Notes under the pieces: generated by a model | What the model was told of the DNA's origin: nothing | Database searches by the model: none | Seen by the model: the letters and a program-made list of their open reading frames with translations, nothing else | Made by a program: the position numbers and the translations under genes | Shown: positions 34,634 to 46,800 of the stretch, one piece after another | Layout of the letters: each line of letters begins with the position of its first letter | How positions within the stretch are numbered: position 1 is the stretch's first letter | Assembly: GCA_038087875.1 (NCBI GenBank) | Contig: CM075989.1 | Coordinates: forward strand, 12,402,001-12,466,000 | DNA from: Malacoraja senta | Taxonomy: Eukaryota | Reading direction: 5' to 3' | Length of the DNA: 64,000 nt

Positions 34634-34833
34634 NNNNNNNNNNNNNNNNNNNNNNNNNNNNNNNNNNNNNNNNNNNNNNNNNNNNNNNNNNNNNNNNNNN
34701 NNNNNNNNNNNNNNNNNNNNNNNNNNNNNNNNNNNNNNNNNNNNNNNNNNNNNNNNNNNNNNNNNNNNNNNNNNNNNNNNNNNNNNNNNNNNNNNNNNNN
34801 NNNNNNNNNNNNNNNNNNNNNNNNNNNNNNNNN
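34634..34833. other. Assembly gap (200 N)
   Basis: Run of N. Confidence 1.
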
Positions 34834-35610
34834 GGGGAGAGAGAAGGGGCAGTGGGAGAGAGAAGGGGGAGTGGGAGAGAAGGGGGAGTGGGAGAAAGGC
34901 ATGGGGGTGGAAGGGAGGGGACGGATGGGGAGAAAAGAGATTAGAGGGGAGACGGAGAGATTAGAGGGGAGAGAGGGGGAGGTAGGGGGAGAGAGAGAGG
35001 AGGGGGTGAGTGAGGGGGTGAGAGGATAGGTGAGGGGGAGACTTGGAGGGGAAGAAGAGGAGGGGGAGAGTTGGAGGGTGGAGAGGGAGAGGTGGGGGAG
35101 AGAAGAGGAGGGGGAGAGGTGATGGGGAGGGGGGGAGGGGAGGGTGGAGAGTGGGGGTGGAGAGGGGGAGGAGAATACGATGTAGAGGGGGTGTAGAGGG
35201 GAGGGGATAAAATGGGGGAGGGGAGGGAGAAAGGTGAGGGGGGAGAGGGGGGAGGTGGAGAGAGATTGGATGTGAGAGAGAGAGGGAGAGAGAGGAGGGG
35301 GGAGCGAGAAGGGGGAGAGAGAAGGGGAGGGGGGAAGGCACGGGGAGGGAGGGGAAGACAGAGGGAGAGAGAGGGGAGAGGGGGGAGAGAGGGGAGAGAG
35401 GAGGGGGTGAGTGAGGGGGTTGGAGGAATGGGAGGGGGAGTTGGAGGGGAGAGAAGAGGAGGGGAGAGGAGGAGGGGAGAGGTGGAGGGGGGAGAGGTGG
35501 AGGGAGGTGGAGGGGGAGAACAGGAGGAGAGGAGGAGGGGAGGATAGGAGGGGTAGAGGTGGAGGGGGAGTGGAGGGCGGTAGAGAAGGGAGGGGGTAGA
35601 TAGGGAAGGT
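34834..35610. repeat. Complex G/A-rich purine tract, copy 1
   Basis: Almost entirely G/A on the + strand; shares ordered landmark words with 37040-37900. Confidence 0.9.
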
Positions 35611-36024
35611 GACAAAATAAGCCAGGCGCTTGAGCCAGCATGAGAGAGCCGGCCCGTTTGGGGGGGGGGGGGAAGTGGAGGAGAGCCGGGCAGCAGCTGC
35701 GAAAATCGCCAGCGAAAGAATAAAAATGTCGTGTTTTTGGAGTAGAGCCGGGCGGCAGCAGCCTTTATGGTGACAAAATGAGTGAGTGTGGGGTGGGGTG
35801 GGGGGGGGATGATTTTATTTTAAAACGTGTACATAAAAATGCCTAAATCTAATAAGGAGTGTGTTAGGGTATGTAAAAGTGTAATGTCTAGCGAAATGGA
35901 AAAAAATCTCGGAGTTTTCGCGTGTGGTTTTGGCGGACCAAGGAATCAAAGGCCAAATCTGACACCCACAAACACACACACACACACACTCCCACGCACA
36001 CACACACAGAGTTTTAATAGTATA

Positions 36025-38581
<2,557 letters not shown>

Positions 38582-38587
38582 TAATGA

Positions 38588-38764
<177 letters not shown>

Positions 38765-40552: not shown

Positions 40553-40729
<177 letters not shown>

Positions 40730-42758: not shown

Positions 42759-43854
42759 ATAGACCAAGTCCCATTCCCCCAACGTAATATTCCAGCACTC
42801 ACCCATAGCCCCCAACTGCGCAGGCGCAGCTGAGGGGTTCCCGTTGTGATGCCAGAGATGCCCGTTGTGACGTGAGTCACGGCAACACTCCCCCAACTGC
42901 ACCTCGCCATCACGGCAACTCTCCACCAACTATGCATCGCCATCTCTCTTCCTACCGCTATCCTCCTCCATTCCCCCTCATCCCCAGGACTCACTCCCCT
43001 TCCTCTTCACCCTCCCTCTTTTTTCCCCTGTCTTCCTTCCCTCCCCCACTCCTTCCCACACCTCTCCCTTCCTCTCCTTTCCCCTACCCTCAGTCACTCC
43101 CTCCCTCCCTCCATAACCCCTCTCCCCTCCCTACCCCCTCCTCACCCTCTATCTCCCCCCCTCCCGCACTCTCCCTCCTCACCTCCCCCACTTTCCCCTC
43201 CCTCTCCCTCCCTACCCCCTCCTCTCCCATAATCCCATCAGCTTCCCTCCTCACCTCCTAAGGATCTCGATGTAAACCACCGCCGGCTCCATTTTCTCCA
43301 GCAGGGTGGCGATGAAGTTGTACTTGAGGCGGGGGTTGTCGAGGGAGGTGGCGAGCATCCTGGAGCCAGGGGAGGGCTTGAGGCGGGTGCTGTTGGGGGT
43401 GGTGGGGGAGAAGAGGGGCGAGTGTCTTGGAGCTGGAGGAGGGGAGGGAGAGACCGAGGGCACCCGGCGCAGCCTGTTCCAGCCCCCCGGTCCCCGGGGT
43501 GTGGGGGCAGAAAGTACAATGGAAGGGAACCTGCCCGTGGAGCCGTCGGGTCGCCATTGTGACGGGGGGGAAAAAGGTCTGAAATTGTGCATAGGCCGCG
43601 ATGAGAACCCGTGGGGTGTCCTTTGTGACGCCTGTCAAGTAAAGTGGGGGCACTGTTTTTAAAAAAAAGTTTAAAACGTCAATAACTTGTAAAATATACC
43701 ATCAATCGGAACAAAACTTTTAAAATTTACATCACAGGACAATGGTGAGTAAGGTGGGCCAAAAATTGTAGCGCTATCGTGTACCGTTTTTGCGCAATAC
43801 AAGCCGGGTAAACAAACGGACAATCAAACAAGATGGGAGTTTTAGTAATATAGA
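42759..43854 (-). mobile_element. Non-autonomous Helitron-like element with HTRA2-like cargo
   Basis: Left end tagaccaagtcccattcccccaac matches 36026 onward with the first hairpin deleted. Right end gagttttagtaatataga matches the family terminus and is followed by AGAT-like repeats. Confidence 0.72.
43255..43557 (-). pseudogene. HTRA2-like exon-1 fragment carried in a Helitron-like element
   Basis: 43340-43255 encodes [28 protein letters not shown](R), resembling HTRA2 [28 protein letters not shown], followed by a phase-2 donor AG|GTGAGG. An upstream Kozak ATG at 43557 (MATRRL...) is in another frame, implying a frameshift. No downstream HtrA exons were seen. Confidence 0.82.
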
Positions 43855-46800
43855 GAAAGAAGATAGATTGTGCAATACATTTGATAACTTTCAATGAGGT
43901 CTAAAATATTTTGCTTTATCAATATTTTTGAAATATTCTTGGTGACACTCCTTTCCATTACTTTGAATAATTGTGAATCAGCTGTAATGTTTTTTTTATT
44001 TTAAAGAAGAGTGTTTGCTGTACTGATCCAGAACTTCAATCCATTAATCTACTATAATGAGAAAACCTAATGACAAATTGGAAAATTTAGATGTCAGGAA
44101 AGAAATTGTCTCAGTCATTAAGAGAGGTAGAGAAAAGCTGATAGAATTAAGCCAATTTTAGGATGGTAAAATATAACTGTTGAAAATTACCATTATTAAA
44201 TTATTTGGTGCTAAAATGTATAACCAATGATGATTTGTCCTAGATTTTATCATTCTGAAACAAAATTCCTTTTAATGCAGTCTTTTCTGCAGGGATATTA
44301 ACACTGGAAATGCAGTTGCTTGACTAAACCATACGTGTGTCATAGAGATGCCACTTAATTATGTTTGCAGTTAAAAGAGATTGTTGATCAGAATACTCAA
44401 TACCTGTATTAACCTTTTGATCTCAATCACATCAACATGTTCAATAGCTTCTAGCTTTTCTCTTTGCTTTTCCATTTCATGATGCAACATGTTCGGTCAA
44501 GTGAAGTAAATATTTAAGCAGAGTGTTGGTTTAGCTCAATGTTTGTTTGAGACATATTTTCCTGTTGGCTTAATCCATGCTTTTTTTAAAGTAACAGTAT
44601 CTTATGAGGATTTACTTAGTGGAACTTTTCTGTGTTGCAGAGAATTCTGGGGCAGCTACCAATGCTATTGTTTCTTAATCTGTTCCTATATGGTCAAATG
44701 ATTTTATTGTAATTCAAACAAGAAGCAAAAGTTTCAGTATGAGGAATACTGAGAAGCTTTACATTTTATTCAAAACATCAGCAAGGCAAAATTTGCTCCC
44801 AATCCTGAATTTAGATGGTCTTGTGTTGTGACTAATCCTGCAATACAGAAATTATCCTACTTGTTTCCATTATAGAAAATGAAATGTTAAAATTTCAATG
44901 GTTTAATTTAAAGAATTGGATGAGTTTACCTAATTACCTAAAATGCAAAAACAAATTGCTGGAGAAGCTCAAAGGGTCAAGCAACATTTGTGGAGGCAAA
45001 GGGATAGTTTACATTTTGGGTCATGACTGAAATTGTAGAGAGAAGGTAACCAATATGAATAGGTGAGAGGGAGGGGTGAAATAGAGGTTGGTAGTTGGAA
45101 CCTTGGTGAAGTGGGAATTGTTGGGGGAGGGGCAGTGGGATTTTAGGGACGGAGGCTGATGGTGATAGGTGGAAATTGGTAAGAAGAAATTGCGGAGGGA
45201 TGATAGGCAGAAGGAATCAGATGGGGAAGGGATTAGGAAAGTTACAGTACTTTGAACAATATCTAACAGTATTAATGAAAACTGTAGATACTGGAATGTG
45301 GAGCAAAGAACAAGCAGCTCGAGCAACACTGTTAATAATGCTTTCATGACGTGATTGTTACATTTCTCAAGAACAATAAATTCAGATATATTGTGATTAA
45401 ACAGCTGGTCAGGCAGGGGTTAAAGCAAAATATGCGGTTGATGTTTGGTGACGTTCGTCATTAAAACTGGCTAATTTATTTATTTTGGACCCATATAATT
45501 TATAATTTACACAGTGTAATGGAAAACCCGTTATATAACTATACAGAAAAGAACTTTGGAAGCACTGATAAAGAAATCACACATTGACTGTTTTAGAAGG
45601 TTCATTTAAAGTTTAAAGAGTAGCAACCTAGAAACTATTCCTGTCACTAAAGGCATGTTAACTGCAACACAGGGTGAGCCAGCATTTCTTTTATATGTGG
45701 GCTCCAGAAGCAATACATGAGACCCATGAGGTCACACACACGGATTGGGATATGTTTGTACAAACACACAAAGGGAAGGGCAATATCATGATGCTTTCAT
45801 GCATTCTCTGCCTTAAAAAAAAGACTGTTCTTAATTTTTTTTTTGACTTTGACCAAAGTAGTAACACATATTGACGGGTCTCTTAATAAACTATAAGGTA
45901 TTTTAGGATTAGGATATATGTGAAGACAAAGGGTACAAGAGCAAGCAGTCATATTGTGCACATCTGCAACTGAAATATTGCATCCAATGCTGGGGACCAT
46001 ACCTTAGGAAGGATGTGAAGATCCTAGAAAGGTGGATAAAATATTTGCCACCTTGGTTCCAGGAAAGCTATGTGGTTGGTGAAGGTAGGGAGAGAATGAG
46101 TAATGCAGAGATCAACAAGACTTCAGAGAAGATGGAATCACTGAAGGGAACACCTAAAGAAATAGATATCAGGATGAAGACGGGTTCTTTAGGTTCCCTG
46201 GTAGCAATCCAGATGAAGTCATGCCTCTTCAAAATAATGTTGTGAGAGGCTTCAAACCTCCTGTAAAGATCATATTCAGTCTGTGGTGCCTGAGGCTTAT
46301 CAGTGCAGTGTAACACCACTGTGAAACCCTCATGGTCTCCATACACGTACAATATTCCAGGATAGGTACGCAATCATGTTTCGCTGTCACACTTTGAATG
46401 AAATCTGTTTCTTTTATCCAACCGATTTATATTAAAAATGTTGTGCTGCATGATAGAATTTTGTTGAAAAGTGGTGATGAAATAACTAGTTCAATTTCAG
46501 CTGGCATAGATGCTGTTGTGCCATAAGTTTATATGTCCCTATGACATGTAAATCTATGGTATTCAAGCATTTATATCTGTATAGCCCACTGGTAGGAGTA
46601 AAATGTTGTGTAATTTTTTCATGTCAGATACTTCAAGCTTCTGCACCAACAAAGTGATTACTTGAAGAATGAAAGGAGAAAGAGAATTCAGAAACACTTG
46701 AATATTTTAACATGACATTTCCGCTCTATAACTGTCTATAATACATTTGACCCTAATTGAAACAGAAAAGCTAAAGATTTATCAGTCACAGTTATTGTAC

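What the first reader, a model, noticed from the sequence alone, without database searches (positions are those of the whole stretch)
43249..43655. HTRA2-like exon 1 with its splice donor inside a MEGF11 intron
Seen: minus-strand [34 protein letters not shown], a frameshifted upstream Kozak ATG (MATRRL..., Arg-rich like a mitochondrial presequence) and a GA-rich tract after the donor. From memory, HTRA2 exon 1 ends in phase 2 within the Arg after VVYIEILD, the same position. A retained donor with no downstream exon argues for capture of genomic DNA rather than a processed pseudogene. The fragment is antisense to MEGF11.
Basis: partly seen in the sequence, partly recalled or inferred. Interest (0 to 1): 0.75.

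Follow-up and report, generated by a model that had tools for sequence, protein, structure and literature searches.

The report
Skate Helitron carrying HTRA2 first exon
In a skate, a rolling-circle jumping gene picked up the end of the first exon of the mitochondrial protease gene HTRA2 with its splice signal and spread it to over 600 places; this copy, lying backwards in a MEGF11-like intron, is likely a decaying passenger, a kind of gene capture already known from bats and frogs.

Summary
The HTRA2 exon-1 fragment and its donor are real. Spliced skate transcripts continue from exactly this base into HTRA2 exon 2. It is not a lone captured exon. It is cargo in a ~1.1 kb non-autonomous Helitron (43856-42760, minus strand) with A|TC...hairpin-CTAG|T ends and no target duplication.

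641 genomic sites carry the exon end plus donor. Longer copies keep the transmembrane segment. The window's subfamily lost that segment and duplicated a ~55-bp unit. Four of 100 copies sit upstream of RepHel coding sequence, and intact RepHel frames with the same 3' end exist. Copies decay about neutrally, and this insertion is shared with two related species.

The 'Kozak ATG/presequence' is not HTRA2: the family reads ACG there, so the ATG is likely CpG decay. The native gene was not found in this assembly, so intron and promoter capture could not be compared directly.

Closest known: bat HelibatN3 (NUBPL). This scan already noted skate Helitron captures of other genes on other DNA. New member of a known kind.

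The parts
43660..43867 (-). Helitron 5' arm. The family start TCTCTATATTACTAAAAC is at 43856. A short simple-repeat extension back to A|TC at 43867 may be the true end.
   Evidence: Aligns to the 5' ends of other copies; 1,999 genomic sites match a 24-nt 5' motif with at most 1 mismatch, control 0
43515..43659 (-). Internal module with hairpin-like remnants, the ATG at 43557 (family reads ACG) and a decayed donor-like site at 43534 (family GG|GTAAGT, here GG|GCAGGT). Origin not established.
   Evidence: GTAAGT in 21 of 29 copies; the 24 nt before it resemble the element's own 3' hairpin arm (at most 3 of 12 mismatches) in 22 of 29 copies, versus 2.9% of shuffles
43437..43510 (-). Degenerate upstream part of HTRA2 exon 1, with a deletion junction near 43461 that removed the transmembrane-coding segment kept in longer copies
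   Evidence: Alignment with long copies L115, L084, L109; long copies translate to sequence resembling skate and shark HTRA2
43326..43436 (-). Two tandem ~55-60 bp units derived from the exon stretch coding RLQAARPVPPDSPRLK
   Evidence: 0-8 units per copy in this subfamily, mostly 1 in the ancestral type
43255..43334 (-). Core HTRA2 exon-1 end ([26 protein letters not shown]), derived 'AALLE' subfamily
   Evidence: the window copy differs from its subfamily majority at 6.4% of 94 nt
43249..43254 (-). HTRA2 intron-1 splice donor GTGAGG (phase 2, within Arg)
   Evidence: Spliced contigs in 4 of 4 runs leave at this base; GTGAGG in 63 of 87 copies where the site was located
42950..43248 (-). GA-rich tract; only its first bases can be ascribed to HTRA2 intron 1
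   Evidence: the native intron was not available
42760..42949 (-). Helitron 3' arm. In this copy 14 bp of the terminal hairpin are deleted and the end reads CTA|T instead of CTAG|T.
   Evidence: a related species has the 14 bp at this same site (run X7)
40621..40721 (+). Host gene exon (end of the EMI domain) preceding the ~30.5 kb intron that holds the element 2.0 kb downstream
   Evidence: (EMI, E 2e-5)

Best explanation
This is one copy of a non-autonomous Helitron family that carries the 3' part of HTRA2 exon 1 with its real splice donor at over 600 genomic sites; the piece was likely captured once from genomic DNA by read-through past a weak 3' terminator, and this antisense intronic copy is likely an inert, decaying passenger.

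Shown: Helitron-type ends, A|T insertion, copy number, exon border, RepHel-coding relatives, near-neutral decay, and the insertion shared with related species.

Inferred: (1) A Helitron next to or inside the 5' part of HTRA2 was copied past its own end and stopped at a later Helitron-type end, taking about 300 bp of exon 1 plus the start of intron 1. (2) RepHel supplied in trans amplified it. (3) A sub-lineage lost the transmembrane segment, changed ADVVE to AALLE and duplicated a ~55-bp unit; it gave rise to both short elements like this one and RepHel-coding ones. (4) Because it is antisense, its donor cannot be used by the host pre-mRNA.
For: Ends: of 100 copies analysed, 52 have the 3' motif within 1.3 kb, 50 of those 52 are followed by T, and 34 of 52 keep the hairpin. 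In 11 full copies with a canonical start the junction is A|TC, with no duplication longer than 2 bp. Head-to-tail junctions occur.
Copy number: 641 sites, control 0; 102 exact 16-mers, control 1.
Transposase: 112 Helitron_like_N matches. A 1727-aa open frame has Helitron_like_N and PIF1 domains. 8 of 9 long-frame loci end with the same ...ACCCAACGGGT..CACTTGGTCTAG. The copy at C1:272.25 Mb has the window-type 5' arm and HTRA2 piece followed by a degraded RepHel; 4 of 100 copies have RepHel sequence downstream.
DNA-level capture.
Decay: non-CpG divergence is similar at the three codon positions; N/S ratios 0.74 and 0.83 do not differ from neutral (p 0.13, 0.60). The core has an indel or truncation in 14 of 62 and 17 of 31 copies.
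Age: the insertion is present in runs of two other organisms whose flanks differ by about 3-4%.
Against: The native HTRA2 locus was not found in this assembly, so the capture site and the extent of captured intron are unverified. No empty site was seen in the listed joints (the list was cut). Only 44 of 100 copies have this family's 5' motif and 27 have both ends; others carry different upstream modules. The intact-RepHel elements have a different 5' end, so they are not proven partners. The hairpin's folding energy is no better than shuffles (z -0.5); its weight is conservation and position. The short-core tree does not prove one origin for the window's type (11 of 14 in one clade at 99/97; 3 changes needed). 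80 of the copies were chosen by an exact 16-mer, which biases divergence downward.
Confidence: 0.9

Rival explanations
1. The family is not inert: sense-oriented copies would lend the HTRA2 donor (and GC-rich exon DNA) to host transcripts as new exons, or copies would yield antisense or small RNAs that regulate HTRA2.
For: The donor is intact in 63 of 87 copies and there are 641 sites. Bat HelibatN3 does this (PMC4778049, passages). Some unspliced RNA-run contigs cover element sequence.
Against: In 4 runs the only listed departure at the donor was the native exon 2, one contig per run, and none was listed at the upstream donor-like site (107 further loose ends not shown; contigs drop rare forms). 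No native start or promoter was found in 100 copies. The window copy is antisense.
Confidence: 0.12
2. HTRA2 DNA entered an existing Helitron by repair or recombination (filler DNA, perhaps via GA-rich or GC-rich similarity) rather than by read-through.
For: The cargo is flanked on both sides by sequence common to far larger families, and it occurs behind several different upstream modules.
Against: A hairpin-like remnant lies just upstream of the cargo in 22 of 29 copies with that module, and the cargo has the same orientation as the element, both as read-through predicts. The remnant count is not independent of how those copies were selected.
Confidence: 0.25
3. A processed pseudogene or a nested, working HtrA gene.
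For: The core frame is open in this copy.
Against: Intronic donor sequence follows the exon, and spliced mRNA differs from that base on. Searches with HTRA2 exons 2 onward hit only two other HtrA loci, on C1 and C15, and nothing on C13. There are hundreds of copies with transposon ends.
Confidence: 0.01

Closest known systems
HelibatN3 of Myotis bats (NUBPL capture; PMC4778049 and PMC4224331, passages read; section 15 of the latter read whole)
   Same: Non-autonomous Helitron with TC/CTAG ends and a hairpin about 11 nt from the end, carrying a host first exon, donor and partial first intron, amplified to about a thousand copies.
   Different: HelibatN3 carries the promoter and 5' UTR and drives transcripts. 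Here no native start or promoter was found, the cargo is the coding 3' part of exon 1, no chimeric splicing was seen, and the host is a cartilaginous fish.
Heli1Xen1 of Xenopus laevis (PMC12001565, passages read)
   Same: Captured coding fragments, mostly from 5' ends of genes (17 of 19), in non-autonomous Helitrons, with tandem repeats forming inside elements.
   Different: Frog captures are young and low-copy (up to 17). This one is old, has 641 or more sites, has split into subfamilies and also occurs in RepHel-coding copies.
HelibatN217/N539-type stepwise and composite captures (PMC4224331)
   Same: Modular elements in which cargo is joined to different arms, fitting the end-bypass model.
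   Different: The parental locus could not be inspected here.

Membership tests
Helitron (canonical, non-autonomous) | 5' end TC | tested here: met
   TC start in 17 of 44 located 5' ends; most others are AT-repeat runs or follow another copy's 3' end. The window copy starts TC at 43856 or 43867.
Helitron (canonical, non-autonomous) | 3' end CTRR | tested here: met
   CTAG-type end in 52 of 100 copies; degraded to CTA|T in the window copy
Helitron (canonical, non-autonomous) | Short hairpin about 11 nt before the 3' end | tested here: met
   7-bp stem, 3-nt loop (energy not above shuffles); kept in 34 of 52 ends; deleted in the window copy but present at this site in run X7
Helitron (canonical, non-autonomous) | Insertion between A and T without target duplication | tested here: met
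   T follows in 50 of 52; 11 of 11 canonical full copies have a 5' A and no duplication over 2 bp
Helitron (canonical, non-autonomous) | Empty orthologous site | tested here: inconclusive
   All four runs laid have the insertion; no empty-site joint listed
Helitron (canonical, non-autonomous) | Related RepHel-coding partner | tested here: met
   Degraded RepHel behind the same 5' arm and cargo; intact frames share the 3' end but not the 5' end
HTRA2 exon 1 | Best similarity to HTRA2 rather than HTRA1/3/4 | tested here: met
   ancestral-type majority peptide [29 protein letters not shown]
HTRA2 exon 1 | Ends at the native exon 1/intron 1 border | tested here: met
   4 of 4 runs
HTRA2 exon 1 | Native start codon, presequence, promoter | tested here: not met
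   MAAP-type start in 0 of 100 copies within 900 bp; promoter not testable without the native locus
HTRA2 exon 1 | Similarity continues into native intron 1 | not testable with these tools
Processed pseudogene | Joined exons, no intron, poly(A), target duplication | tested here: not met

The most novel reading that the evidence does not exclude
Skates have undergone bat-scale Helitron gene shuffling, and this family has been an active source of new exons: hundreds of intact HTRA2 donors are used in host transcripts, and the captured GC-rich exon served as the leader or promoter platform of a transposase-coding Helitron lineage. The ancestral copies also preserve an older skate HTRA2 (shark-like TGPAVV, no skate-specific insertion).
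Probability: 0.12. Interest if true: 0.65.

Novelty: new member of a known kind. Interest (0 to 1): 0.38.

Why it matters
High-copy Helitron capture of host first exons is documented in vertebrates mainly for vesper bats and Xenopus. My searches found no paper on it in skates and none on HTRA2 (listings only). This case adds a well-resolved example with an mRNA-verified exon border, a subfamily history and cargo inside transposase-coding copies. It makes the end-bypass model testable once a native skate HTRA2 locus is aligned. In practice, over 600 decoy exons can mislead annotation and read mapping of HTRA2, whose real gene was not found in this assembly. No function is shown for this copy.

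Tried and rejected
Pfam scan of the fragment: no family. The first protein search with the window peptide found nothing at E<=0.1; a profile of copies worked.

Native HTRA2 in G000: not found by PF13365, by a paralogue exon or by shark HTRA2 exons 2 onward; only HTRA3-like and HTRA4/1-like loci appeared. A weak hit on C2 was chance. The PDZ scan was uninformative. The tool that fetches DNA around a database protein was closed, so the little skate locus was not seen.

The look-up of sequencing runs: no RNA holder listed on record. The five 'RNA?' runs had small shares; four were laid, and their spliced contig shows they contain RNA.

Rejected: a reading frame giving an AVPS-like motif (longer copies show another frame); the ATG as a start codon; the GA tract as proven intron 1; the upstream GTAAGT as a proven second captured donor (no departure listed there, and it resembles a decayed terminator).

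Rows dropped: L019 (same place as L004) and 9 of 109 loci lacking the anchor 15-mer. Some remaining pairs look like assembly duplicates (L023/L024, L065/L066, L093/L094, L064/L095). The tree used 62 of 100 copies (those without core indels), and its bootstrap had not settled.

PMC4224331 supplements: 4 files searched, no HTRA2; 1 file not searchable.

Full report
Observation. The minus strand at 43334-43255 codes [26 protein letters not shown], followed by AG|GTGAGG. The best solved-structure matches are HTRA2 (E 3e-5; 13 HTRA2 chains rank above HTRA3 and HTRA1). A profile from seven genomic copies retrieved 25 proteins, 22 named HTRA2 and none named HTRA1/3/4, led by sharks and the little skate. 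The organism is a skate: an HtrA paralogue exon of this genome is 97% identical to Amblyraja radiata. The host gene has EMI exons at 38656-38757 and 40621-40721 and a PEAR1/MEGF-type EGF exon at about window position 71,275, all on the plus strand. The fragment is therefore antisense, in a ~30.5 kb intron. The name MEGF11 is from my recall.

It is a repeat. A search of the own genome with the 451-bp region gave 438 candidates, of which 40 were scored, yielding 92 matches. An exact 16-mer of the exon occurs 102 times (control 1). A 25-mer spanning the exon end and donor occurs 641 times within 3 mismatches (control 0). Similarity among copies ends sharply near window 43856 and 42768. I analysed 100 of 109 distinct loci fetched (9 lacked the anchor). 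Of these, 44 have the family's 5' motif, 52 the 3' motif and 27 both; T follows the end in 50 of 52. The hairpin is kept in 34 of 52. Eleven full copies with a canonical start show A|TC...CTAG|T-type junctions with no duplication over 2 bp. Some copies are head-to-tail. These are the hallmarks given for Helitrons in PMC4778049 (passages). The hairpin folds as a 7-bp stem but no better than shuffles. The window copy lacks 14 bp of it, which a related species retains at this site.

Transposase link. The genome has 112 matches to Helitron_like_N, including open frames of 1,500-1,770 aa; one tested has Rep and PIF1 domains. Eight of nine such loci end with the same hairpin loop and last 12 bases as our family, although their 5' ends differ. 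At C1:272.25 Mb the window-type 5' arm, module and HTRA2 piece lie directly before a degraded RepHel 66-69% identical to the intact one. Four of 100 copies have RepHel sequence downstream.

The donor is the native one. I laid contigs of four RNA-like runs (two organisms, two studies) on a long copy. In each run one contig follows the exon to the donor and then continues with codons for HPLSGREVAI, the start of HTRA2 exon 2 in the little skate protein. So the cargo is genomic DNA, not mRNA. The same border exists in both other HtrA genes of this genome, so position alone was not diagnostic. No other partner for this donor was listed, but contigs hide rare forms and 107 loose ends were not shown. 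The native gene was not found in G000, so intron 1 and the promoter could not be compared. The GA-rich tract is mostly shared with much larger families.

History of the cargo. 62 copies read ADVVE like the real protein, many with the transmembrane segment. 31 copies, including the window's, read AALLE, mostly lack that segment and have tandem copies of a ~55-bp unit; 7 are unclear. The deletion junction is near 43461. Eleven of 14 indel-free AALLE copies, with the window copy, form one clade (99/97); the tree does not prove a single origin. The ancestral copies read TGPAVV and lack an insertion, as in sharks, whereas the little skate protein and the native contigs of both organisms read TAPAVV. 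This suggests an old capture (inferred; the window species' own gene is unknown). Non-CpG divergence is about 6% (biased low) and similar at all codon positions. N/S ratios of 0.74 and 0.83 do not differ from neutral. The insertion is present in two other organisms whose flanks differ by 3-4%: both junctions in X7, and the 5' junction plus 10 bp of the 3' end in X8 and X10.

It lies in a module upstream of the HTRA2 DNA. The family reads ACG there (15 of 29; ATG 5, ACA 4, other 5), the pattern of CpG decay on either strand. Its frame stops at the donor, and the true start MAAP was found in 0 of 100 copies. The module has a second donor-like GTAAGT in 21 of 29 copies, decayed in the window. It is preceded by sequence like the element's own hairpin arm (22 of 29, not independent of selection), which fits a bypassed old terminator but is unproven.

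Mechanism. Most likely there was one read-through capture, amplification by RepHel in trans, internal deletion and duplication, and insertion of this copy antisense into the host intron, where it decays (0.9 for a Helitron passenger; read-through is favoured over filler capture at about 3 to 1).

Comparison. It works like, and meets the tested features of, a non-autonomous Helitron with a captured first exon, as HelibatN3 in bats (PMC4778049 passages; PMC4224331 passages, section 15 and 4 of 5 supplements searched) and Heli1Xen1 in Xenopus (PMC12001565 passages). Searches for Helitron with HTRA2 and for Helitron capture in skates found nothing relevant (listings only; subscription papers and repeat databases were not covered). 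Earlier notes of this scan describe skate captures of ALG13, dysbindin, TDP2 and ZFP36 on other DNA (unchecked, seen after my reading was formed). Verdict: new member of a known kind, interest 0.38.

Noticed in passing
window 34834-38400 (minus strand; assembly gap 34634-34833): Two head-to-tail copies of another Helitron-like family with a related 3' end (junction ...CTAG|T ATACTATTAAAAC at 36024-36036), long purine-rich tracts and a (GATA)n run at the outer 5' end, ending about 70 bp (end of the GATA run) to 260 bp before the host exon at 38656.
   Followed up: partly
L155:1472-7000 (G000:C1:272.25 Mb); also L073, L059, L060: RepHel-coding Helitrons whose leader holds the HTRA2 remnant; in L155 it is expanded into about 1.1 kb of tandem units and cut by a stop shortly before the RepHel start.
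   Followed up: partly
L069, L070, L078, L099, L105, L063 (upstream of the HTRA2 piece): A different shared upstream module (GC-rich ~300 bp plus a common skate palindromic repeat) in 8 of 100 copies; possibly another captured host fragment.
   Followed up: no
G000, whole assembly: Only two HtrA genes were found; HTRA2 and a fourth paralogue were not. The HTRA3-like gene at C1:273.15 Mb shows an apparent 1-bp frameshift in the exon matching our fragment, possibly an assembly error.
   Followed up: partly
P0121 (Rhincodon typus database protein): A gene model named HSPA12B-like ends in HTRA2 exon-1 sequence, probably a fusion of neighbouring genes by the annotation.
   Followed up: no
window 43292-43305 (+): The antisense HTRA2 piece offers an acceptor-like TTTTCTCCAGCAG|G on the host's sense strand; use untested.
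   Followed up: no
G000:C2570, C3619, C4719, C6177: Young Helitrons with long intact RepHel frames in tandem arrays on unplaced contigs, suggesting recent activity.
   Followed up: partly
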